Shown: positions 33,302 through 64,000, counted from the first letter of the stretch. The stretch is DNA of 64,000 nt from Promethearchaeota archaeon (GCA_048941285.1 JBHLNS010000010.1:20177-84176); one strand, 5' to 3'. Notes: generated from the letters alone by a model not told the origin. Made by a program: numbers and translations.

Positions 33302-33565
33302 ATGAATGAGAAAAATATTATAAGATTTAACACAGCAGAAAAAGTAATTTTTTTTACAGGAATACTGTTGATTGTATTATCAATTATTAGTGAATTAAAT
33401 TTCCATTACATTCAAGGTTTCAAACCTGAATTAATGGCCCCTAACATTTTTTGGAAAGCAGAAGCAGCAGAAGTTTTTAATTCTATGAGTTTTCTTATCT
33501 TAGGTATTTTATTAATATTTATTGCTTTTAGAATTTCAAAGAGAAGAATATCTATGGAAAATTAG
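33302..33565 (+). CDS. small two-TM membrane protein
   Basis: 87 aa with two hydrophobic helices. Confidence 0.4.
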   Translation: MNEKNIIRFNTAEKVIFFTGILLIVLSIISELNFHYIQGFKPELMAPNIFWKAEAAEVFNSMSFLILGILLIFIAFRISKRRISMEN

Positions 33566-52903: not shown

Positions 52904-53554
52904 ATGATTATAAATAGAATTAAGAAATTGATCGCTGTTTTATTTTTAATCCTATTTATTAATATAGGTTTTATCTTATCTGCTATTGAAGTATATTTTA
53001 ATTTGGGTACTTTAATCATAATAATCAGTTTTACATTGATATTAAGCCTTGATATTAGTATTAGGCCAATAACTCAGAAAAGAGATCAGTTTAAATATGC
53101 CACGCTTTCAGTATTGTTATTTTTACTACTTCCATTGTTATCTATTATTCCGTATTTAGAATTCTACTTTCTAACACAGCGATATTTCATAATATGGAAT
53201 AATTTTTTATTATATTTTGTTGGAATGGTTTTATTATTACTTGGTGGGATAATTTTGATTTATAGCAGACTTATCCTAGGAAAGCTTGCATCTAGTAAAA
53301 TTGTTATTGAACAAAATCATATTTTAATAAACAAAGGAATTTATAAATATATTAGACATCCGATATATTTAGGGATGCTTCTTATTTTTTTTGGTTATGC
53401 GTTATCTTTCAAATCTGTTTTTAGTCCTTTTTCTTTTCTAATTTTATTCTTCCTTATTTTTAATAATCGCATGAATTTGGAGAGGAATATGAATCTTATA
53501 TTAATAAAACTAAGAGACTTATTCCTTATATATATTGAAATTTTAAATGAGTAA
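52904..53554 (+). pseudogene. ICMT/PEMT-family methyltransferase with a frame-disrupted C-terminus
   Basis: KGIYKYIRHPIYLGMLLIFFGYAL is intact. The canonical C-terminal block EFGEEYESYINKTKRLIPYIY* is encoded in a different frame (53473..53538), and the EE..L element expected before it is missing. Confidence 0.55.
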
Positions 53555-56357: not shown

Positions 56358-56656
56358 AATAAATTAGAACTAGTTTATTAACAAGATTAAAATAAAATAT
56401 TTTTAAAAAAAACAATGTTAATGAGATATATAATCCAAGCCCCTCAAGGTGATGAGAATTTCACTTTTTTGAGCTTCTAAATTTTCTATTCTCTTTTTAA
56501 AAATATCAAATTTTGTTATTTCATATAATTCCTTGGTAGAAGCAATTTGTTTATTAATTTCGTGAATAAAAGTTTGTATCATAATAGAATTTTTGATATA
56601 ATAAATTTAAAGGAAAAGGTACAATCTTACCCAATAGACATTTAAGGTAATTTTTT

Positions 56657-57478
56657 CTAAAGAAAAAAATCTTGATAAAGTTCAGCCTTGAGATCAACTG
56701 AAAATTTTTGTAAATCAGTTATACCATGTTCGATAAGAATTTCTTCATCAATAAAGAAATTTCCCGTGTAATGTTCACTTGGTTTTGTAAAAATAATATA
56801 AGCTGCATCAGCTACGATTTCTGGAGTCCTTGAATGCTTAATTGTGGATTCCCCACCTAACAAATTTTTCACAGCTGCAGTTGCTATAGGAGTGCGAGGC
56901 CATAAAGCATTAACAGCAATCCTATCTTTCTTAAATTCTTCAGCCATTCCTAAAACACACATACTCATTCCATATTTAGAAATTGTATATGCTACGTTAT
57001 TTTTAAACCATTTTGAGTCTAAATTTAAAGGAGGTGATAAATTTAATATATGAGGGTTTTCTGCTTTTTGCAAGTAAGGGATACATAACTTTGAGCATAA
57101 AAAAGTTCCTCTAACATTAACTGAAAACATTAGATCAAATCGTTTCATCTCAAGCTCTAAGGTGGGTGATAGATTTATGGCACTTGCGTTATTTACAAGA
57201 ATATCAATACCCCCAAATTCTTTTACGGTAGCTTCAATGGCAATTTGAACCTGATCTTCATATCTGATATCTGTTATACAAGGGAGAGCATTACCTCCCG
57301 CTGAGATTATATCTTCAACGGCGCTATATACTGTTCCTGGCAATTTTGGATGAGGATCTTTCGTTTTCGCAACTACTGCTATATTTGCTCCATCACGAGC
57401 TGCTCTTAAGGCAATAGCTTTGCCAATTCCCCTACTGGCACCAGTAATGAAGAGAGTTTTCCCTTTTAAAGATTTCAT
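56657..57478 (-). CDS. SDR family oxidoreductase (HSDL2-like)
   Basis: TGASRGIGKAIA, NNAS, YTISK, PHPKLPGTVYS loop. Confidence 0.85.
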   Translation of the reverse strand: MKSLKGKTLFITGASRGIGKAIALRAARDGANIAVVAKTKDPHPKLPGTVYSAVEDIISAGGNALPCITDIRYEDQVQIAIEATVKEFGGIDILVNNASAINLSPTLELEMKRFDLMFSVNVRGTFLCSKLCIPYLQKAENPHILNLSPPLNLDSKWFKNNVAYTISKYGMSMCVLGMAEEFKKDRIAVNALWPRTPIATAAVKNLLGGESTIKHSRTPEIVADAAYIIFTKPSEHYTGNFFIDEEILIEHGITDLQKFSVDLKAELYQDFFL

Positions 57479-57615
57479 TTAAATCAAGCAAATTTTCTTA
57501 TAATTAATTTTAGTTAACTTTGTTATTTTCTATTTTAACTAATCTTTTATATTTTATAGTAATAATTCATAAGAAAAAGGTTTAAACACATTTTTAACAT
57601 ATTTTACTCATAATA

Positions 57616-58104
57616 ATGGCAGATTTGAATCCCGAAAAATTGCATGTTGTTTATAAAGATTCGGTTGATGCTGATAGATTAGTTTTGCCTCGTAAATATA
57701 CATTAACACATTCTGATTCAACTGGAGAGCTTTTCCTTACAATAGGAATTGAATATGATTATGAACAAATTTCAAGTTTTTATACTCGATTTATGAGAGA
57801 CGAGGTATTAGCTGAATGGCAAAAGAAGGAAAAAGATTTTGAACTCCATTTCTACTTACATGTGAGTGGTGGTTTTTGCTTCGGATGGCCAAGATTACGA
57901 GATAGAATCTTTCGATATCACCTACCCCTTGTTTTTGAAGCAGTTAGATATGGAGATAAGAAATTATTTGAAGAAATGCCAGAAATCAAGGATTCACAAA
58001 TTATTGTACATTTTCAATCGAATAGAAAGAAATATAATCTTATTGAAAATTTCGGACAATTTTGCGAGATCCCCGTTAAGAATTATAGAATATTCACTCA
58101 ATAG
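57616..58104 (+). CDS. Staygreen (SGR) family protein, Mg-dechelatase homologue
   Basis: Collinear with plant SGR landmarks: LPRKYTLTHSDSTGELFLTIG, RDEVLAEW, LHFYLHVSGG, RDRIFRYHLPLVFEAVRYGDKKLFEEMPEI, IIVHFQSN..YNLIENFG. Confidence 0.8.
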   Translation: MADLNPEKLHVVYKDSVDADRLVLPRKYTLTHSDSTGELFLTIGIEYDYEQISSFYTRFMRDEVLAEWQKKEKDFELHFYLHVSGGFCFGWPRLRDRIFRYHLPLVFEAVRYGDKKLFEEMPEIKDSQIIVHFQSNRKKYNLIENFGQFCEIPVKNYRIFTQ

Positions 58105-58190
58105 GTTTAAGATTTATAATTGTTTAACCTAACCTGATTAATAAATTATTAACATTGCCTACTTAAGATTCAATTTTCATATCTAGTAAT

Positions 58191-58796
58191 ATGAATGAAA
58201 TAAGTAAATTAGTTGAACAAGGATATAATAAAATTGCTGATGAATATTATACTTATAGAGATATTAACAAATTTGATAACGAGCTAAGAAAATTTGCGTC
58301 TCTCCTTCCACATAATGCTCATATATTAGATGTAGGATGTGGAGCCGGTATTCCTACTGCCAAATTCTTAGTAGAAAAAGGGATTCAAGTTACAGGAATT
58401 GATCTATCTCAAACAATGTTGAACCTAGCTCGAGAGAATGTACCTAATGCTCAATTTATTAAAATGGATATGAATGAACTTGAATTTAAAGAAAATACGT
58501 TTAATGGAATTATAAGTGTATATACTTTATTCCATGTTCCTAAGAAGAATCATTTCGAAATATTCAAAAGATTTCATAAAATATTGAAGCCTGGCGGTAT
58601 TTTGTTAATGAACACCGGTATCTTAGAATCAGAAGGAACCAGCATTTTTTTCGGTGTTCCAATGTTTTGGAGTAATCTCAATCCAAAAACAACTCTCGAT
58701 CTCGTAAAAAGTGCAGGATTCTCTATAATTTCTGAAGCGATTTTAGAAAGAGGTGGAGAATATCAATATTGGATTTTTGGAAAAAAAATTAAATGA
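58191..58796 (+). CDS. class I SAM-dependent methyltransferase
   Basis: ILDVGCGAGIPTAKF motif I, and LKPGGILLMN. Confidence 0.8.
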   Translation: MNEISKLVEQGYNKIADEYYTYRDINKFDNELRKFASLLPHNAHILDVGCGAGIPTAKFLVEKGIQVTGIDLSQTMLNLARENVPNAQFIKMDMNELEFKENTFNGIISVYTLFHVPKKNHFEIFKRFHKILKPGGILLMNTGILESEGTSIFFGVPMFWSNLNPKTTLDLVKSAGFSIISEAILERGGEYQYWIFGKKIK

Positions 58797-58894
58797 TAAT
58801 TTTTCTTTTACGATTTTTATCTTTTTAGATATTTATTCTATAAATTAAAGAAAGAATTTTTTTTAATAACTATAACTTCTATTTATCCAGAATT

Positions 58895-60130
58895 ATGATA
58901 TTATTTAGTATTAGAAATGCATTTAGGAAAAAATTAATCGCGATACTTGCTGCTATTGGTGTCGGATTTGGATTAATGTTAGTTTTTGTGATTGGTGCAT
59001 TCACAGCAGGCGTTACTGCTCAGTTTCAAGATAGTCTTACAAGAACTTTGGGTATTGTAAGTGTTACTGAGAAATTTCAACAAGGAGCAGAGAGTCATCT
59101 TCCATTAAGCCTTCCTCAAGAGATTCAAGATACTCCAAATGTTGGGGAATATATATTAAGCTATAATGTTGAAACTCAAACTCCAGATTATTTTACTTCA
59201 GAATATTGGGGTAATTTAAGTACTTTTGGAGATAGACTCATTTTAAAAGGACTTAATTCTACAATAGATAGTAATTGGGAAGGTGTTACAACAAAAATTA
59301 TCGAAGGAAGAACTTTTGATCCTAAGAAAAATGAAACTATAATAGATTCCCGATTATTAGATATTGCAGATTTTCCAGTATCAATAGGCAGTAATATTAC
59401 ACTCAGTTTGGATTTAAGTGGAAATAAAACTTCAATTCTAACAATAGTAGGGATATATGAACAGGAAGACACAGGAGCTCCCTCATTTGTTCCCAGAGAT
59501 TATTATATTTATACAGATATGCAGACTACGTGGAATTTTCTCAATATAGCAGGTGAAACAAGTAATAAATACACTTTGATATATCTTAGATTTAATGTTA
59601 AAGGGCATAAAGATACAGATGAGTTGGTAAAAAGGATTAATGATTATTCAGAAGATGATGGATATGCGCCGTTATATGTGACAGCATTTTCACTTGCTAC
59701 TTTTCTTCAGGAAATAGAGGATACATTTAGGATCTTTGACTCATTCACAGCAGTTTTAGGCTTTATTGTTGTTCTTTCAGGAGGAATGGCAATAATTGTA
59801 ACTCAATTGATGTCGGTTTCATCTCGTATGAAAGAATTTGCTATTCTTAAAGCAACAGGATGGAAAAATCGTCACATTTTCAAGGATGTAATTTATGAAT
59901 CTCTAACACTAGGCATCTTGGGAGCCGTTATTGGATTATCGATCGGTATTTTGCTTATTTTCCTCTTAGGTGGAGGTTTATTGCCATTTGGAGGTGTTTC
60001 AGCTATGGTTACATGGAGAGGTGTTATAGAAATAATTGTCTATGCTCTCGGCTTAGGTATTGTTGGAGGATTATATCCAGGCATAAAAGCATCCAGAGTA
60101 AGACCCGTAGTGGTCTTAAAAGGAGAATAG
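58895..60130 (+). CDS. ABC transporter permease, FtsX/MacB type
   Basis: N-terminal TM, a large periplasmic-type domain, and a C-terminal FtsX-like 3-TM bundle ending GLYPGIKASRVRPVVVLK. Confidence 0.8.
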   Translation: MILFSIRNAFRKKLIAILAAIGVGFGLMLVFVIGAFTAGVTAQFQDSLTRTLGIVSVTEKFQQGAESHLPLSLPQEIQDTPNVGEYILSYNVETQTPDYFTSEYWGNLSTFGDRLILKGLNSTIDSNWEGVTTKIIEGRTFDPKKNETIIDSRLLDIADFPVSIGSNITLSLDLSGNKTSILTIVGIYEQEDTGAPSFVPRDYYIYTDMQTTWNFLNIAGETSNKYTLIYLRFNVKGHKDTDELVKRINDYSEDDGYAPLYVTAFSLATFLQEIEDTFRIFDSFTAVLGFIVVLSGGMAIIVTQLMSVSSRMKEFAILKATGWKNRHIFKDVIYESLTLGILGAVIGLSIGILLIFLLGGGLLPFGGVSAMVTWRGVIEIIVYALGLGIVGGLYPGIKASRVRPVVVLKGE

Positions 60131-60134
60131 TGAG

Positions 60135-60851
60135 GTGTTAATGATTGAACTTATAAAGTTAAAAGATGTTAGTAAAATTTATGGTGAAGAAAGAACTACA
60201 ATTAAAGCATTGGATCGTATTAACCTAGAAATTGAAGAGGGAAATATTATTACGGTAATGGGACCTTCGGGAAGCGGGAAAAGTACTTTATTAAATATAC
60301 TTGGAGCTATGGATAAACCCACATCTGGAGAAGTTTTGGTTAATAACATTGAGATAGGAGGATTGCCTGAAAGAAAATTGTCCAATTATCGCAAATCCCA
60401 AGTAGGGTTTATTTTTCAGAATTTTTATTTATTGCCAAATCTGAATGTCATAGAAAACGTTCTTGTCCCTATAGTCCCCTTTGGGATTAAAGAAAAAGAC
60501 CGTAAAAAAGCGCAAGAATTATTAGAAATCGTTGGATTAGGTGAAAGAGCGAATAGTAAAGTAAGTAAGCTCTCGGGCGGGGAATCTCAAAGAGTTGCTG
60601 TTGCTCGTGCATTAATTAATAATCCCAAGGTAATATTAGCTGACGAACCAACGGGAAATTTAGATACTGAAACCGGAAAATCAATAGTAGAGCTCTTAAT
60701 AAAATTAGCTGAAAGTGGAAAAACTTTGATTATTGTTACGCATGATCCCAGAGTTGTATCATTAGTTGCTAACCATCCACTCGGTAAAAACATTTGGATA
60801 AAGGATGGGCAATTAAGCGATCAACCTACCTACGATCTAAATTGCTGGTAA
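60135..60851 (+). CDS. ABC transporter ATP-binding protein (MacB/LolD-like)
   Basis: GPSGSGKST, LSGGESQRVAVARAL, ILADEPTGNLD; 4-nt gap after the permease. Confidence 0.9.
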   Translation: MLMIELIKLKDVSKIYGEERTTIKALDRINLEIEEGNIITVMGPSGSGKSTLLNILGAMDKPTSGEVLVNNIEIGGLPERKLSNYRKSQVGFIFQNFYLLPNLNVIENVLVPIVPFGIKEKDRKKAQELLEIVGLGERANSKVSKLSGGESQRVAVARALINNPKVILADEPTGNLDTETGKSIVELLIKLAESGKTLIIVTHDPRVVSLVANHPLGKNIWIKDGQLSDQPTYDLNCW

Positions 60852-61041
60852 GATATCAATAGTTTTGAAAAACTCATTTTTTTGATGAATTTTAAATTTT
60901 CCTTATTTATTTTAATATTTTACATTTTCACATAAGGTAAATTTTCATTTAAAAACCTTGAATTAATAAATTATGTTGAAAATAATTTTATGATAAAATG
61001 TCTGAATAAAAAATAAATAAAATTAAAAAAATGTGATATAA

Positions 61042-61839
61042 ATGGAAGGAAGACTAGATTCTGACATAACATTTCCTTATTTGCGAAAATTTAATTTAAT
61101 AATGGGTTTTTTACACCTTATCCAAGCTAGTTTAATGTTAACCTTAGCCCTGGTTGTTCCTCAAATAAGGGATTTTGAGCTCCCAATTACCACTGCATTT
61201 TTAGAATACGATCCTATGTTAGAGATATTGATCCCAAATTATACTCAGTTGACTACAATACCAATAGGACCTATTGTATCCTCATTTCTTTTCATATCGT
61301 CAATAGCTCATTTTTTAATCGTATTACCACGAGTTAATGATTTCTATAATGAAAAATTGAAACTAGGAATCAATTATTTTCGATGGTTTGAATATGCTTT
61401 AAGTTCATCCGTAATGATTGTCCTTATTTCGATGTTTTTTGGAGTTTATGACTTAGGAAGCTTAATTGTTATTTTCTCAATTAATGCTACGATGAATTTA
61501 TTGGGATTGATGATGGAATTGCATAATCAAACAACCGAGAAAACTAGATGGACAGCTTTCTACATCGGGGTTTTTGCAGGAATTATCCCATGGGTCATAA
61601 TTTTAATCTATTTGTTTGGAAATGGTAATATTGGTGAAATTCCGTGGTTTGTCTGGGCTATTTTTGGTTCGTATTTCTTTTTCTTTAATACCTTTCCAAT
61701 CAATATGATTTTACAGTATAAGAAAACCGGTAAATGGAGAGATTATTTGTATGGGGAAAGAGGATATATACTTCTGAGCTTAATTTCTAAAAGTTTGTTA
61801 GCATGGCTAGTGTTTGCAGGTGTCTTACAACCAGCATAA
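61042..61839 (+). CDS. heliorhodopsin
   Basis: 265 aa, 7 TM. It carries FLHLIQ (His25), IAHFLIV (His90), FRWFEYALSSSVMIVLI (Glu117), IIPWVIILIY, LQYKKTGKWRDYLYGERGYILLSLISKSLLAW (Lys250), and ends ...GVLQPA. It is collinear with HeR-48C12 as I recall it. Confidence 0.85.
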   Translation: MEGRLDSDITFPYLRKFNLIMGFLHLIQASLMLTLALVVPQIRDFELPITTAFLEYDPMLEILIPNYTQLTTIPIGPIVSSFLFISSIAHFLIVLPRVNDFYNEKLKLGINYFRWFEYALSSSVMIVLISMFFGVYDLGSLIVIFSINATMNLLGLMMELHNQTTEKTRWTAFYIGVFAGIIPWVIILIYLFGNGNIGEIPWFVWAIFGSYFFFFNTFPINMILQYKKTGKWRDYLYGERGYILLSLISKSLLAWLVFAGVLQPA

Positions 61840-61963
61840 TTCAAATTAACTAAACGAATTTTTTTCTAATTTATTTTCTATAATAATAAGTTTTTTCATG
61901 TCTTAAAAATAATAATCATTAATTACAAAGTATTCAGATTCAATAGATTTCAGATTTTCTAAA

Positions 61964-62815
61964 ATGGAAAAAGAAGAACTATTACATTGTTTAAATTGTG
62001 GCAGAAAATTAAGTGCTGAGAATAAAGTTAGCAATAATTTTTGCGCTGAATGCGTTCTAGGTTTAGATTTTCGAATAACTGATTTAAATCATAAAGAAAT
62101 TGATATTTATCTTCAGAAGATATTAGATTTTTTCATTTCAGATGTAAATGTCGCTTTTAACAAAGATCCTGCAGCAAAGTCTCTTATCGAGGTATTAACA
62201 AGTTATCCAGGAATTAAAGCTGTTCTATTATACCGTATAGCACACTTTTTTTGGAAAATGGGAATGCCCTTTATTCCAAGGTATATATCTGAGATCGCAA
62301 GAGAGTTAACAGGCATAGAAATTCATCCAGGTGCAGAAATAGGAAAAGATTTCTTTATAGATCATGGAACTGGTTGTGTTATTGGTGAAACTACTGTTAT
62401 AGGAAATAATGTTACAATATTTTCAGGTGTAGTTTTAGGAGGCACAAATATTGATCCTGTAAAAAGGCATCCTACTTTAGGTAATAATGTAGTTGTAGGG
62501 ACTGGAGCTAAAATTCTTGGACCTGTTAATGTTGGAGATAATGTAAAAATTGGTGCAAATTCTGTTGTAGTAACTGATGTACCACCAAATTCAGTAGTAG
62601 TGGGTGTACCCGGGAAAATTATTTCGAGAGAAGGTGAAAAAATAGAAAAAATAGATTTACGGCACGGTGATTTACCTGATCCCCTAACACTCACAATAAA
62701 AACTTTGGATAAAAGAATAAAAGAATTGGAGAACAGAGTTCTTGATCAAACGGAAAAGGAAAAGAAGAAAGATGATATTGAAATTTACTATGGAGAATAT
62801 GGTCATGGAATTTAG
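61964..62815 (+). CDS. cysE: serine O-acetyltransferase with an N-terminal zinc ribbon
   Basis: DPAAKSLIEVLTSYPGIKAVLLYRIAH, TGIEIHPGAEIG..FFIDHGTGCVIGET, and the hexapeptide-repeat region KRHPTLGNNVVVGTGAKILG; N-terminal CLNCG..CAEC; C-terminal ...YGHGI. Confidence 0.85.
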   Translation: MEKEELLHCLNCGRKLSAENKVSNNFCAECVLGLDFRITDLNHKEIDIYLQKILDFFISDVNVAFNKDPAAKSLIEVLTSYPGIKAVLLYRIAHFFWKMGMPFIPRYISEIARELTGIEIHPGAEIGKDFFIDHGTGCVIGETTVIGNNVTIFSGVVLGGTNIDPVKRHPTLGNNVVVGTGAKILGPVNVGDNVKIGANSVVVTDVPPNSVVVGVPGKIISREGEKIEKIDLRHGDLPDPLTLTIKTLDKRIKELENRVLDQTEKEKKKDDIEIYYGEYGHGI

Positions 62816-62855
62816 AAACTATTAATAAAATTATAAAAAAAAAAGTGTTAGATAT

Positions 62856-63782
62856 ATGGGAATATATAATAATATAATTGAGACCATTGGCAAAACTCCG
62901 CTAGTGAAATTGAATAAAATTGCTGAGAATATTAAACCTTCAATATATGCAAAATTAGAATATTTCAATCCAGGAGGCAGTGTGAAGGATAGAATAGCAA
63001 TGTCAATGATTGAAAGAGCGGAGGAAGAAGGATTGATATCTCAAGATACTGTTATAGTAGAACCCACTTCAGGTAATACAGGAATTGGATTAGCCCTTGT
63101 TTGTGCAGCTAAGGGATATAGATTAATCCTTACAATGCCAGATAGCATGTCTATAGAAAGACGGCAGATTTTAAAAGCATTTGGGGCAGAATTAGAATTA
63201 ACTCCTGCTTCGGGAGGCATGAAAGGTGCTATCGAAAAAGCAGAAGAGCTGTCAAAAGAAAGAGGGAAAGTTTTTATTCCACAACAATTTAAAAATTTGG
63301 CTAACCCTGAAATTCATAGAAGAACTACTGCTAAAGAGATATTTAATGATTTAGCGGGACAAATTGATGGGTTTGTAGCGGGTGTAGGAACAGGTGGAAC
63401 AATTACTGGAGTTGGCGAGATTCTAAAGGATAGAGTAGGAGCAAGATTAAAAGTATATGCCGTAGAACCCAAAGATTCGCCTGTATTGTCTGGAGGTAGT
63501 CCTGGCCCCCATAAAATTCAAGGAATTGGAGCGGGATTTATTCCAGAAGTGTTAAACACAATGATATACGATAAAGTAATAACAGTAGATTATGAAGATG
63601 CTTTAGCTACAGCTAGAAAACTTGCACGCTTGGAAGGGATTTTTGTTGGAATATCCTCTGGAGCGAATGCGTGGGCTACTTTATATGAAGTTTCAAAGGA
63701 TTTCGGAAAAGGAGAAAATATAGTAGTAATTTTACCTGATACAGGAGAAAGATATCTTACGACTGATGTATTTAAATTCTAA
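62856..63782 (+). CDS. cysK: cysteine synthase A (O-acetylserine sulfhydrylase)
   Basis: GGSVKDR PLP-lysine motif, [22 protein letters not shown]. Confidence 0.9.
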
Positions 63783-63851: not shown

Positions 63852-64000
63852 ATGCCAGAACTACCAGAAGTAGAAACATTCAAGCATTATTTTGATGAGA
63901 CTTCTTTAAACCAAACAATTAGTTCATTGAAAATAATAGATAATAGAATTTTGAATGCTAACGAGTCAGAACTGAGAAAGTTAGTAATAAATAATAAATT
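63852..64000 (+). CDS. Fpg/Nei-family DNA glycosylase, N-terminal fragment (runs off the window end)
   Basis: Begins MPELPEVETFKHYF..., the invariant PELPEVE catalytic N-terminus of the Fpg/Nei family. Confidence 0.75.
   Translation, partial: MPELPEVETFKHYFDETSLNQTISSLKIIDNRILNANESELRKLVINNK

What the first reader, a model, noticed from the sequence alone, without database searches (positions are those of the whole stretch)
57616..63782. Co-directional SGR - methyltransferase - MacB-type ABC - heliorhodopsin - CysE/CysK block: candidate light/pigment-linked module
Eight consecutive plus-strand genes place a chlorophyll-dechelatase homologue 3 kb upstream of a photoreceptor-like heliorhodopsin. 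A SAM methyltransferase and a MacB/FtsX-type ABC pair lie between them, and cysteine biosynthesis follows directly, then an Fpg/Nei repair glycosylase. Two pigment- or light-related proteins so close together in a sediment-type archaeon is unexpected. It suggests a functional link, for example light-gated export or handling of photosensitising tetrapyrrole breakdown products and oxidative-damage control. The intergenic gaps are 86-190 nt, so this is not a single tight operon and the link is hypothetical.
Basis: inference. Interest (0 to 1): 0.6.

Follow-up and report, generated by a model that had tools for sequence, protein, structure and literature searches.

The report
Heliorhodopsin-linked Stay-Green light-stress gene neighbourhood
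In this Asgard archaeon, a homologue of the plant chlorophyll Mg-dechelatase (Stay-Green, SGR) lies near a heliorhodopsin light sensor; the same pairing recurs in several archaeal and bacterial lineages, often with DNA photolyase, which points to a light-stress role for prokaryotic SGR.

Summary
The eight plus-strand genes are real and correctly named: SGR, a class I methyltransferase (MT), a MacB/FtsX permease plus ABC ATPase, heliorhodopsin (HeR), CysE, CysK, and an Fpg N-terminus. They are not one operon.

Comparative genomics splits the block into three layers.

1. **Conserved core.**
   - HeR lies within 10 kb of SGR in 18 of 80 species-level SGR loci, against fewer than 1 expected by chance.
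   - These represent at least 5 lineages, including Dehalococcoidia and Anaerolineae.
   - HeR is the third most frequent SGR neighbour.
   - Photolyase (8 loci), Fpg and MsrA/B also recur beside SGR.
2. **ABC cassette.** The MacB-type pair follows SGR(-MT) in 8 Asgard loci, all without HeR.
3. **CysE-CysK.** These accompany HeR only in the two closest relatives, so this is probably plain synteny.

The SGR keeps every residue shown to be essential in the characterised bacterial dechelatase. The HeR keeps its retinal lysine and counterion.

My best reading is a light or photo-oxidative-stress neighbourhood, with HeR as sensor and SGR acting on Mg-tetrapyrrole photosensitisers. The mechanism is inferred, not shown. 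I found no paper linking HeR and SGR.

The parts
52904..53554 (+). PEMT/ICMT-type membrane methyltransferase, a peripheral and recurrent SGR-neighbourhood gene
   Evidence: Pfam PEMT E 1.4e-9 and ICMT E 6.6e-9. The same ORF cluster lies near SGR in 11 other Asgard loci and beside SGR in L174/L175.
56657..57478 (-). HSDL2-type short-chain dehydrogenase (SDR), transcribed divergently from SGR.
   Evidence: Pfam adh_short E 6e-35. NCBIfam PRK08278 subfamily, 441 bits against a cut-off of 250. Best solved structure is human HSDL2, 3kvo, E 1e-101. The SDR(-)/SGR(+) pair at 78-88% identity occurs in about 27 Asgard loci.
57554..57587 (+). Conserved SGR promoter element TTATAGTAATAATTCATAAGAAAAAGGTTTAAAC (upstream box, purine-rich stretch, TATA-like TTTAAA)
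   Evidence: It is present in 32 Asgard SGR loci whatever the upstream gene, and ends 27-28 nt before the ATG wherever the same start codon was called (25 of 32 loci). It occurs only once in the 64-kb window. Reading it as an own, near-leaderless archaeal promoter is inference.
57616..58104 (+). Stay-Green (SGR) Mg-dechelatase homologue
   Evidence: PF12638 E 1.8e-48. In 16 Asgard sequences R26, Y28, T29, T31, H32, D34, D62, E63 and R95 are invariant, and T36, R61 and D114 nearly so. These are the positions mutated in AbSGR-h, where D34 and D62 are essential for catalysis (PMC8531759).
58191..58796 (+). Class I SAM-dependent methyltransferase (MT), substrate unknown
   Evidence: Methyltransf_25 E 3e-23, Methyltransf_11 E 5e-22, CMAS E 7e-13. 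No NCBIfam equivalog reaches its cut-off. It is adjacent to SGR in about 25-29 loci, as SGR>MT> and also as MT>SGR> in L045 and L054. The SGR-MT spacer is conserved in 21 loci.
58895..60130 (+). MacB/FtsX-type (type VII) ABC permease with an extracytoplasmic MacB_PCD domain
   Evidence: FtsX E 6e-16 and MacB_PCD E 4e-13. It lies 4 nt from the ATPase gene. It follows SGR(-MT) in L006, L008, L019, L021, L024, L026 and L027, and lies upstream in L034.
60135..60851 (+). ABC ATPase partner of the permease
   Evidence: ABC_tran E 1e-34. LolD-like, 223 bits, below the equivalog cut-off. A T7 tract lies 26 nt after the stop codon.
60963..60992 (+). Conserved HeR upstream element (TTAATAAATTAT ... TTTTAT), the probable HeR promoter
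   Evidence: It is conserved upstream of Loki-type HeR genes in at least 15 loci. The 12-mer TTAATAAATTAT occurs only twice in the window, here and 42 nt upstream of the MT start at 58138-58149; 4 of 100 shuffles give 2 or more matches.
61042..61839 (+). Heliorhodopsin (HeR)
   Evidence: PF18761 E 1e-97. NCBIfam HeR equivalog, 319 bits against 100. Best solved structure is TaHeR, 6is6, E 2e-68. The alignment keeps RWFEY (counterion Glu; the E-to-D variant is 7clj), SLISK (Schiff-base Lys) and both His positions. A T7 tract follows the stop codon.
61964..62815 (+). Serine O-acetyltransferase CysE. It is syntenic and probably not functionally part of the module.
   Evidence: TIGR01172, 225 bits against 210.65. 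It follows HeR only in L007 and L010. It lies 5-8 kb from SGR in the HeR-less loci L030 and L034.
62856..63782 (+). Cysteine synthase CysK, a tight pair with CysE
   Evidence: TIGR01139, 448.6 bits against 350.95. The gap to CysE is 40 nt with no T-tract.
63852..64000 (+). N-terminus of an Fpg/Nei DNA glycosylase, truncated by the end of the window
   Evidence: PF01149 E 1.5e-7 on 49 residues. Full-length orthologues carry Fapy_DNA_glyco + H2TH + zf-FPG. The same family is directly adjacent to SGR in L037, near it in L039, and downstream of CysK in L007, L010 and L030.

Best explanation
The eight-gene run is a mosaic, not a single operon.

**Conserved unit.** The functional core is a light or photo-oxidative-stress gene neighbourhood built around the SGR homologue: SDR<>SGR-MT, with heliorhodopsin held close by.

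**Proposed mechanism.**
- Shown: SGR keeps the full catalytic and structural residue set of the characterised bacterial Mg-dechelatase AbSGR-h.
- Inferred: it is therefore an active dechelatase. In a non-phototroph that feeds on detritus it would act on chlorophyll-type Mg-tetrapyrroles, which are photosensitisers.
- Shown: HeR is a bona fide retinal protein.
- Inferred: HeR is the light sensor of the neighbourhood. By analogy with the demonstrated HeR-glutamine synthetase, HeR-photolyase and HeR-ABC transporter pairs, it may act by direct contact with neighbour-encoded proteins (SGR, SDR, MT or the ABC pair). Alternatively it may simply be co-selected in a light-response island.
- Inferred: MT and SDR modify the pigment or membrane lipid.
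- Inferred: the MacB-type ABC pair here, or the MFS transporter that takes this position in other lineages, removes the product.
- Inferred: Fpg here, and photolyase or MsrA/B elsewhere, repair collateral damage.

**Other points.**
- CysE-CysK are most likely passengers.
- Probable transcription units are [SDR], [SGR(-MT)], [FtsX-ABC], [HeR], [CysE-CysK] and [Fpg].
For: **Linkage statistics**
- HeR is within 10 kb of SGR in 18 of 80 species-representative SGR loci.
- 1.13 Mb was scanned. Even if every genome carried one HeR, the expected count is 0.4-0.75, giving a Poisson p below 1e-18. For 5 or more independent lineages, p is about 5e-5 to 1e-3.
- In an unbiased clustering of all ORFs in these loci, HeR is the third most frequent SGR neighbour, after SDR and MT.

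**Independent lineages and rearrangements**
- Loki-type group A shows the orders HeR>SGR>, SGR>HeR>, SGR>MT>HeR>, HeR>SDR<SGR>, SGR<MFS<HeR>, HeR separated from SGR by 4-8 kb, and the window's own order.
- Group B has a divergent HeR<SGR> arrangement with a different HeR type (about 50% identity). L051 is a further lineage.
- Dehalococcoidia (L071, HeR>SGR> with an 87-nt gap; L078) and Anaerolineae (L074) are bacterial, with GC of 47-59%.

**Other light- and oxidation-repair genes beside SGR**
- Photolyase in 8 loci, usually SGR>PHR> and immediately adjacent. HeR, photolyase and SGR occur together in L017, L043, L091 and L166.
- A YbgA-like DUF1722 protein, MsrB and MsrA (Dehalococcoidia), and Fpg.

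**Sequence features**
- SGR catalytic residues are conserved.
- HeR retinal-binding residues are conserved.

**Literature**
- HeR is known to bind and regulate neighbour-encoded proteins. SDR, ABC transporter and photolyase are already among its ten frequent neighbour classes (PMC11109279).
Against: - There is no operon. The HeR and SGR promoter elements differ, T-tract terminators follow MT, ABC and HeR, and the SGR promoter motif occurs nowhere else in the window.
- About 70% of SGR loci have neither HeR nor photolyase within the DNA fetched. Many of those contigs are short, but the figure stands.
- From the HeR side, SGR appears only next to Loki-type HeRs. About 70 other HeR loci have none.
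- From general knowledge, Mg removal alone does not abolish photosensitisation, because pheophytin and pheophorbide are still phototoxic. No consistent downstream catabolic genes (PPH- or PAO-type) sit in the neighbourhood.
- No fusion protein joins SGR to HeR, photolyase or MT.
- All functional steps are inferred from gene context and homology. The native substrate of prokaryotic SGR homologues is unknown.
- The 80 SGR loci are the ones most similar to the query, so the sample is weighted towards Asgard archaea.
Confidence: 0.5

Rival explanations
1. Neutral synteny. SGR, HeR, the ABC pair and CysE-CysK sit together only because related Asgard genomes inherited the arrangement, with no functional coupling.
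For: - CysE-CysK and Fpg follow HeR only in the nearest relatives (L007, L010), and the ABC cassette occurs only in Loki and Hermod loci.
- Each gene appears to have its own promoter.
- HeR and SGR pairwise identities correlate strongly (r = 0.88), as expected from shared descent.
Against: - The gene order around SGR and HeR is reshuffled in at least seven ways while proximity is kept.
- Linkage reappears with a different HeR type (about 50% identity) in the opposite orientation, and in Dehalococcoidia and Anaerolineae.
- Photolyase, MsrA/B and Fpg independently recur beside SGR.
- The chance expectation is below 1 locus.
Confidence: 0.12
2. Chromophore supply. SDR, SGR and MT serve the rhodopsin by making, recycling or trimming its chromophore or an accessory pigment, for example an SDR working as a retinol/retinal dehydrogenase. 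They would not be detoxifying tetrapyrroles.
For: - SDR is a documented frequent HeR neighbour (PMC11109279).
- Some rhodopsin-bearing prokaryotes lack a known retinal synthase (PMC12817590).
- No blh- or CCD-type gene was seen in the loci examined.
- Two amine-oxidase (CrtI-like) genes lie near HeR in L173.
Against: - SGR-SDR-MT occurs in many genomes with no HeR nearby, and sometimes with photolyase only.
- SGR keeps the exact dechelatase residues.
- The SDR is the HSDL2 type, with no known retinoid role.
- Most HeR clades have no SGR.
Confidence: 0.1
3. All eight genes form one light-gated module in which HeR controls the MacB-type exporter to expel tetrapyrrole catabolites, and CysE/CysK/Fpg provide thiol and DNA protection.
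For: - HeR-mediated light modulation of an ABC exporter has been shown experimentally for OcHeR-OmrDE (PMC11109279).
- The ABC pair lies between SGR-MT and HeR in the window.
- Glutaredoxin and thiol-redox genes are known HeR neighbours (PMC8612252).
Against: - The window is the only locus found where this ABC pair and HeR are adjacent. The 8 other SGR-ABC loci lack HeR, and none of the 80 HeR-centred loci has this ABC family.
- OmrDE is a heterodimeric type I exporter, a different ABC class from MacB/FtsX.
- CysE-CysK linkage is confined to the closest relatives.
- T-tract terminators and separate promoters divide the block.
Confidence: 0.08
4. SGR does belong to a photo-oxidative stress response, but its native substrate is not a chlorophyll-type pigment. 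It could be another metallo-tetrapyrrole or an unrelated Mg-bound metabolite, with chlorophyll dechelation being only a promiscuous side activity.
For: - The literature describes the bacterial activity as promiscuous and highly variable between homologues.
- Asgard archaea and Dehalococcoidia make no chlorophyll.
- The context of MT (CMAS-like), SDR, PEMT/ICMT and DUF1295-type genes resembles the lipid-modifying members of bacterial blue-light and singlet-oxygen regulons, such as the CFA synthase in PMC5241685.
Against: - AbSGR-h, from the same kind of non-phototrophic Chloroflexota, is highly active on chlorophyll a.
- The catalytic residues are invariant.
- No alternative substrate is suggested by any data here.
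Confidence: 0.15

Closest known systems
Heliorhodopsin with neighbour-encoded partner proteins: HeR-glutamine synthetase, HeR-photolyase, HeR-OmrDE ABC exporter (Cho et al. 2024, PMC11109279)
   Same: A bona fide HeR sits beside soluble enzymes and transporters. SDR, ABC transporter and photolyase, three of the ten published frequent neighbour classes, occur in this neighbourhood or in its relatives.
   Different: - SGR is not among the published neighbour classes. No paper in the library mentions HeR together with Stay-Green or dechelatase.
- HeR here is not in an operon with its neighbours.
- The ABC pair is MacB/FtsX type, not a heterodimeric type I exporter.
- No interaction has been tested.
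AbSGR-h, the Mg-dechelatase homologue of a non-photosynthetic Anaerolineae bacterium (Obata 2019; Dey 2021, PMC8531759)
   Same: The proteins have the same family (PF12638), about the same length, and the same numbering. All residues found essential or structural in AbSGR-h are conserved. Some Anaerolineae and Dehalococcoidia homologues also sit next to HeR or photolyase.
   Different: The window protein is archaeal and about 50-55% identical to Chloroflexota homologues. Its activity is untested. The published work gives no physiological role and no gene context.
Plant chlorophyll catabolic enzyme set: SGR with the SDR-type chlorophyll b reductase NYC1/NOL, the alpha/beta-hydrolase PPH, and the Rieske oxygenase PAO
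   Same: SGR is paired with an SDR. Alpha/beta-hydrolase genes (11 loci) and a Rieske/VanA_C oxygenase (L001) occur in some neighbourhoods.
   Different: - The SDR is the HSDL2 type, not shown to be related to NYC1/NOL.
- Hydrolase and Rieske genes are not consistently present.
- The organisms are non-phototrophs.
- A recent survey found a full complement of plant-like catabolic enzymes in only one archaeal order.
Bacterial blue-light and singlet-oxygen stress regulons (sigmaE-ChrR or MerR type), which induce photolyases and a CFA-synthase-type SAM methyltransferase (PMC5241685)
   Same: A recurrent set of photolyase, class I (CMAS-like) methyltransferase, SDR, and membrane methyltransferase or DUF1295-type genes, plus oxidative-repair enzymes.
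   Different: No sigmaE/ChrR or MerR regulator was seen. The regulation here would be archaeal. SGR and HeR are not members of those regulons. The resemblance rests on gene content only, and partly on my recollection of the Rhodobacter regulon.
MacB/LolCDE type VII ABC transporters
   Same: An FtsX four-helix permease with a MacB periplasmic-core domain, plus a LolD/MacB-like ATPase encoded 4 nt downstream.
   Different: All NCBIfam scores are far below the equivalog cut-offs. The host is an archaeon without an outer membrane. No adaptor or TolC-like partner is present. The substrate is unknown.

Membership tests
Heliorhodopsin (HeR) | Sequence match to the curated family models above threshold | tested here: met
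   PF18761, 326.6 bits against 26.7. NCBIfam NF038020 equivalog, 319 bits against 100.
Heliorhodopsin (HeR) | Retinal Schiff-base lysine in TM7 (SxxxK) and a single glutamate counterion in TM3 | tested here: met
   The alignment to TaHeR (6is6) places SLISK opposite SLVAK and RWFEY opposite RWFEY. The PDB E-to-D variant 7clj marks the counterion position.
Heliorhodopsin (HeR) | Inverted membrane topology (N-terminus inside), retinal binding and a slow photocycle | not testable with these tools
   This needs expression and spectroscopy.
Stay-Green / Mg-dechelatase (SGR) | Match to PF12638 across the full domain | tested here: met
   164.6 bits against 27, covering profile positions 2-145 of 147.
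Stay-Green / Mg-dechelatase (SGR) | Catalytic D34 and D62, plus structural R26, Y28, T29 and D114, as defined by mutagenesis of AbSGR-h | tested here: met
   R26, Y28, T29, H32, D34 and D62 are invariant and D114 is at least 90% conserved in 16 Asgard sequences, with the same numbering (against PMC8531759).
Stay-Green / Mg-dechelatase (SGR) | Removal of Mg2+ from chlorophyll a or chlorophyllide | not testable with these tools
   This needs an enzyme assay.
HeR-partner regulatory pair (as in HeR-GS, HeR-photolyase, HeR-OmrDE) | Recurrent genomic adjacency of HeR and the partner gene across taxa | tested here: met
   18 of 80 SGR loci, at least 5 lineages, with adjacent genes in L001, L007, L029, L041, L044-L051, L071, L074 and L090.
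HeR-partner regulatory pair (as in HeR-GS, HeR-photolyase, HeR-OmrDE) | Co-transcription of HeR and partner from one promoter | tested here: inconclusive
   In the window, HeR has its own conserved upstream element, and T7 tracts lie before and after it. In relatives the HeR-SGR gaps are 80-220 nt. There are no transcript data.
HeR-partner regulatory pair (as in HeR-GS, HeR-photolyase, HeR-OmrDE) | Physical binding and light-dependent modulation of partner activity | not testable with these tools
   This needs ITC or pull-down and activity assays.
MacB-type (type VII) ABC transporter | FtsX permease domain, a large extracytoplasmic MacB_PCD domain, and a cognate ATPase | tested here: met
   FtsX, 59 bits against 25.5. 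MacB_PCD, 50.4 bits against 27. ABC_tran, 120 bits. The two genes are 4 nt apart.
MacB-type (type VII) ABC transporter | Membership of a named equivalog (LolCDE, MacB, FtsEX) | tested here: not met
   LolCE, 51 bits against 362. MacB, 35.7 bits against 966. LolD, 223 bits against 307.75. FtsE, 203 bits against 264.85.
CysE / CysK cysteine biosynthesis pair | Scores above the NCBIfam equivalog cut-offs | tested here: met
   cysE, 225 bits against 210.65. cysK, 448.6 bits against 350.95.
HSDL2-type SDR (PRK08278) | Score above the subfamily cut-off and a full-length match | tested here: met
   441.4 bits against 250, residues 2-273. 3kvo, E 1.3e-101.
Single operon / one transcription unit for the eight genes | Short gaps without internal promoters or terminators | tested here: not met
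   The gaps are 86, 98, 4, 190, 124, 40 and 69 nt. Oligo-T tracts follow MT, ABC and HeR. Conserved promoter-like elements lie upstream of SGR, MT and HeR. Reading these as archaeal terminators and promoters is inference.

The most novel reading that the evidence does not exclude
Prokaryotic Stay-Green homologues are ancestrally light-stress enzymes, and in Asgard archaea and Chloroflexota they are direct clients of heliorhodopsin. In this reading, illuminated HeR binds the SGR oligomer, or its SDR and MT partners, and switches on Mg-dechelation of exogenous chlorophyll-type photosensitisers. This would give both a physiological role for HeR in these lineages and the original function from which plant chlorophyll breakdown was later recruited.
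Probability: 0.2. Interest if true: 0.8.

Novelty: new variant of a known kind. Interest (0 to 1): 0.62.

Why it matters
Two open questions meet at this locus.
- What heliorhodopsins do has been debated since 2018. Only a few partner proteins have been shown so far.
- What the Stay-Green dechelatase homologues do in organisms without chlorophyll is unknown. The literature calls their activity 'promiscuous' and gives no physiological role.

A conserved linkage of SGR with HeR, photolyase and oxidative-repair genes across lineages gives both questions a concrete hypothesis that can be tested at the bench. The tests are light-dependent regulation of SGR, and binding between SGR and HeR.

The linkage also implies that these supposedly sediment-dwelling Asgard archaea experience light and pigment-mediated photodamage. 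If it holds, it would suggest that plant chlorophyll breakdown began as a microbial photoprotection function.

Tried and rejected
- **Exact-sequence look-ups.** The window HeR and the 100%-identical SGR P0121 returned no contig, so the DNA beyond the window end could not be read.
- **Promoter and terminator scan.** The sigma-70 scan gave the same counts as shuffled sequence and is irrelevant for an archaeon.
- **Shared regulatory motif.** A position-weight matrix of the conserved SGR promoter matched only its own site in the 64-kb window. The 12-mer shared by the MT and HeR upstream regions looks like a TATA-box variant and is weak evidence.
- **TM261 as a TspO-like tetrapyrrole binder.** This is a Trp-rich membrane protein next to SGR or HeR in 7 loci. 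It has no Pfam or PDB sequence hit, even with a profile at E up to 10. It could not be folded because it is not encoded in the window.
- **Rosetta-stone fusions.** Among the 150 best representatives of 644 SGR relatives, the long proteins carry DUF3888, FG-GAP, collagen or Aida_C2 domains. None carries HeR, photolyase, MT or SDR.
- **Non-coding RNAs.** Rfam and tRNA scans of 50-64 kb found nothing.
- **Literature.** No paper contains heliorhodopsin together with staygreen, stay-green or dechelatase. None of the 20 listed results of the Asgard/Stay-Green search contains the word 'Asgard'.
- **L043 as bacterial evidence.** It is labelled Nanopelagicaceae, but its GC is 31.8% and all its genes are Asgard-like, so I treat it as a probably misbinned Asgard contig.
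- **MT as BchM/ChlM or CFA synthase.** The scores are far below the cut-offs and reflect only generic class I similarity.

Full report
**1. What is in the window**

- SGR, 57616-58104: PF12638, E 1.8e-48.
- Class I SAM methyltransferase, 58191-58796.
- FtsX + MacB_PCD permease, 58895-60130.
- Its ABC ATPase, 60135-60851.
- Heliorhodopsin, 61042-61839: PF18761, E 1e-97; NCBIfam equivalog 319 bits against 100.
- CysE, 61964-62815.
- CysK, 62856-63782.
- The first 49 codons of an Fpg/Nei glycosylase, from 63852.

The gaps are 86, 98, 4, 190, 124, 40 and 69 nt.

It is transcribed divergently from SGR across a 137-nt spacer.

The organism is an Asgard archaeon. The closest HeRs (82-92% identity) and a 100%-identical SGR are annotated 'Promethearchaeota archaeon'. 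GC is about 30%.

**2. Are the two pigment proteins functional-looking?**

In 16 Asgard SGR sequences, R26, Y28, T29, T31, H32, D34, D62, E63 and R95 are invariant, and T36, R61 and D114 are nearly so.
- These are, with identical numbering, the residues mutated in the Anaerolineae homologue AbSGR-h.
- There, D34 and D62 are essential for catalysis, and R26, Y28, T29 and D114 are needed for structure (PMC8531759).

The HeR aligns end to end with the solved Thermoplasmatales HeR (6is6, E 2e-68). It keeps the counterion Glu (RWFEY), the Schiff-base Lys (SLISK) and both histidines.

**3. SGR-centred comparative genomics**

Sampling:
The 80 closest were fetched with up to 10 kb on each side.
- About 55 are Asgard. 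The rest are Chloroflexota, Bathyarchaeia and single others.

HeR linkage:
- tblastn with the window proteins shows HeR within the fetched DNA in 18 of 80 loci.
- The DNA scanned totals 1.13 Mb. Even if every genome carried one HeR, only 0.4-0.75 chance co-locations are expected. Poisson p is below 1e-18, and for 5 or more independent events it is about 5e-5 to 1e-3.

Unbiased clustering:
- All 1,257 ORFs of these loci were clustered.
- The most frequent SGR neighbours are SDR (32 loci including the window), the MT (30), HeR (20 including the window and one HeR-only locus) and an MFS transporter (17).
- Less frequent are ABC ATPases (16), with the FtsX permease in 9; a PEMT/ICMT-type membrane methyltransferase (12); and a DNA photolyase (8; PF00875, E 2.5e-32).

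**4. Independence of the HeR-SGR links**

Pairwise identities separate several groups.
- **Group A (Loki type, includes the window).** HeR identity is 74-97% and SGR identity 66-98%.
- **Group B (L041, L044, L046, L048).** The HeR is only about 50% identical to group A, and the genes are adjacent but divergent (HeR<SGR>).
- **L051.** A further lineage.
- **Dehalococcoidia.** L071 has HeR>SGR> with an 87-nt gap. L078 has HeR>DegV>x>SGR>.
- **Anaerolineae.** L074 has SGR>HeR>.

The bacterial contigs have 47-59% GC. L043, labelled Nanopelagicaceae, has 31.8% GC and Asgard-type genes, so I treat it as misbinned.

Within group A the order is repeatedly reshuffled:

| Arrangement | Loci |
|---|---|
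| SDR<HeR>SGR>MT> | L001, L029 |
| HeR>SDR<SGR>MT> | L004 |
| SGR>HeR>CysE>CysK> | L007 |
| SDR<SGR>MT>HeR>CysE>CysK> | L010 |
| HeR>AspRac>(ATP10-like, AKR, PHR, MFS)...SGR>MT> | L013-L017, L091, L166 |
| SGR<MFS<HeR> | L174 |
| SDR<SGR>MT>FtsX>ABC>HeR> | the window |

Proximity that survives this much rearrangement argues for selection rather than frozen synteny.

**5. HeR-centred view**

- Eighty metagenomic HeR loci were fetched.
- SGR appears only next to Loki-type HeRs (L090, L091). Several other Loki-type contigs are too short to tell.
- Adding targeted look-ups, 14 Loki-type HeR loci have SGR within 10 kb. Two reasonably long contigs do not (L002, L173).
- HeRs at 67% identity or less (Thor, Heimdall, bacteria) instead show the known divergent photolyase<HeR> pair. 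They also carry a Rieske, DUF1295, FAD-oxidoreductase and SCP2 set, but no SGR.
- So HeR has many partners, as the literature says. SGR is a partner in particular clades.

**6. The company SGR keeps**

- Photolyase lies directly downstream of SGR in Asgard loci (L040, L053) and in Dehalococcoidia (L077). It is near SGR in L013, L017, L080 and L083.
- HeR, photolyase and SGR occur together in L017, L043, L091 and L166.
- A YbgA-like DUF1722 protein follows photolyase.
- In Dehalococcoidia, SGR is followed by MsrB and MsrA (L080, L082).
- Fpg/Nei is directly adjacent to SGR in L037, near it in L039, and downstream of CysK in L007, L010, L030 and the window.

Taken together, this is the signature of a light or photo-oxidative damage response. 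It matches the published proposal that HeRs act as light switches for oxidative-stress mitigation (PMC8612252). It also matches the finding that HeR binds and regulates neighbour-encoded enzymes and an ABC exporter (PMC11109279).

That paper lists ten frequent HeR neighbour classes, including SDR, ABC transporter, photolyase and alpha/beta hydrolase. SGR is not among them. No paper in the searchable library mentions HeR together with Stay-Green or dechelatase. A 2026 preprint on prokaryotic chlorophyll degradation notes archaeal SGR homologues but says nothing about rhodopsins or gene context.

**7. The other genes of the block**

- **ABC pair.** It follows SGR(-MT) in seven Asgard loci and lies upstream in an eighth, always without HeR. 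It is absent from all HeR-centred loci. It therefore goes with SGR-MT rather than HeR, and within one clade, so shared ancestry is a live explanation.
- **CysE-CysK.** They follow HeR only in the two nearest relatives, and lie 5-8 kb from SGR in two HeR-less genomes. This is best read as inherited synteny.
- **MT.** It is tied to SGR in both orders, SGR>MT> and MT>SGR> with a 30-nt gap in L045. This supports a real SGR-MT partnership. Its substrate cannot be assigned, because every named NCBIfam model is far below its cut-off.
- **SDR.** An SDR of some kind recurs next to SGR even where it is a different subfamily (L013, L014, L166, L048, L068).

**8. Transcription units (inference)**

- A 34-nt element ends 27-28 nt before the SGR start codon wherever the same start was called (25 of 32 Asgard loci that carry it), whatever gene lies upstream. 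It occurs only once in the window. This fits an SGR-specific, near-leaderless archaeal promoter with an upstream operator-like box.
- HeR and MT have their own conserved upstream elements.
- Oligo-T tracts, the usual archaeal termination signal, follow MT, ABC and HeR. They do not follow SGR, FtsX or CysE.
- The likely units are [SDR], [SGR(-MT)], [FtsX-ABC], [HeR], [CysE-CysK] and [Fpg].
- I found no motif shared by the SGR and HeR promoters. Co-regulation is therefore not demonstrated.

**9. Interpretation**

What is shown:
- The gene identities.
- The conserved catalytic and chromophore residues.
- A statistically and phylogenetically robust SGR-HeR linkage.
- Recurrent SGR-photolyase, SGR-Msr and SGR-Fpg linkage.

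What is inferred:
- SGR removes Mg from chlorophyll-type photosensitisers taken up from detritus.
- HeR senses light and acts on the neighbourhood's proteins.
- MT and SDR modify the product or membrane lipids.
- ABC or MFS transporters export it.

Weak points:
- Pheophytin and pheophorbide remain phototoxic.
- Downstream catabolic genes are not consistently present.
- Most SGR loci lack HeR.
- The promoters are separate.
- No fusions exist.

**10. Verdict**

- The eight-gene 'module' is over-extended, and the export mechanism is untested.
- All families are known. What appears undescribed is the conserved association SGR-SDR-MT with HeR and photolyase, which gives a testable handle on two open functional questions.

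Noticed in passing
window 57554-57587: A 34-nt promoter-like element upstream of SGR is conserved almost base for base in 32 Asgard genomes, although the proteins are only 66-78% identical. Its spacing is fixed, ending 28 nt before the ATG. The upstream box TTAATAATTCATAAG looks like a binding site for an unknown regulator.
   Followed up: partly
window 58138-58149 and 60963-60974: The 12-mer TTAATAAATTAT occurs only twice in the 64-kb window, upstream of MT and upstream of HeR (4 of 100 shuffles give 2 or more matches). It may be only a TATA-box variant, or it may be a shared control element.
   Followed up: partly
window 33302-33556 (+): This is a homologue (70% identity) of 'sm85', an 85-aa two-helix membrane protein. 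In 13 other Asgard loci sm85 sits immediately after SGR-MT or next to HeR. Here it lies 24 kb away.
   Followed up: no
L001 7317-8102, L002 11295-12080, L023, L029, L066, L082, L083 (also L102, L107): This is a Trp-rich multi-pass membrane protein of about 260 aa ('TM261') with no Pfam or PDB sequence match. It recurs directly beside SGR or HeR in Asgard archaea and Dehalococcoidia. Its motifs reminded me of TspO-type tetrapyrrole-binding proteins, but I could not show this.
   Followed up: partly
L013, L014, L016, L043, L044, L046, L048, L051, L089, L091, L092, L166, L173: A small ATP10-like protein (PF05176, weak match, about 155 aa) occurs only in loci that carry HeR, usually between HeR and SGR. 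Its function is unknown.
   Followed up: no
L043 (DATKTW010000016.1, labelled Nanopelagicaceae): The contig has 31.8% GC, and its HeR, SGR, photolyase, PNPOx and ATP10-like genes all group with Asgard versions. It is probably an Asgard contig misbinned into an actinobacterial MAG.
   Followed up: partly
L041 (Odinarchaeota), L044/L046 (Promethearchaeia/ota), L048 (Hodarchaeota): These four MAGs carry different phylum-level names, yet their HeRs are 94-99% identical, their SGRs 87-92% identical, and the gene order is the same. Either the taxonomic labels are inconsistent or the block was transferred recently.
   Followed up: no
L022 and L038 (both on CP070831.1); L069 1889-2194 and 9102-9551: Some Asgard genomes carry two SGR paralogues. 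CP070831.1 has two full SDR<SGR>MT> sets 2.6 Mb apart, and L069 has two copies 7 kb apart.
   Followed up: no
P0251, P0273, P0316, P0356 (representative library): In other organisms SGR is fused to a C-terminal DUF3888 domain, once with collagen repeats in between. Other long forms carry FG-GAP or Aida_C2 domains. None of these architectures is discussed in the SGR papers I read.
   Followed up: partly
L168, L170, L172, L176 (Thor, Heimdall and other Asgard HeR loci): A different conserved HeR neighbourhood occurs here, without SGR. It has a photolyase divergent from HeR, then SCP2, a small ferredoxin, an FAD oxidoreductase, a Rieske/VanA_C oxygenase and a DUF1295/steroid-reductase-like membrane protein. 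This set looks lipid- or sterol-modifying and may be the functional counterpart of SDR-SGR-MT.
   Followed up: no
L173 1499-8137: Next to a Loki-type HeR that lacks SGR lie two amine-oxidase (CrtI-like) genes, a PlsY-like acyltransferase and a glycosyltransferase. This could be a carotenoid-type pathway. A PlsY + GT2 pair also follows SGR in Chloroflexota loci L056 and L064.
   Followed up: no
window 56418-56582 (-): A 54-codon ORF lies in the 299-nt spacer between the convergent TM130 and SDR genes. I did not check whether it is conserved.
   Followed up: no
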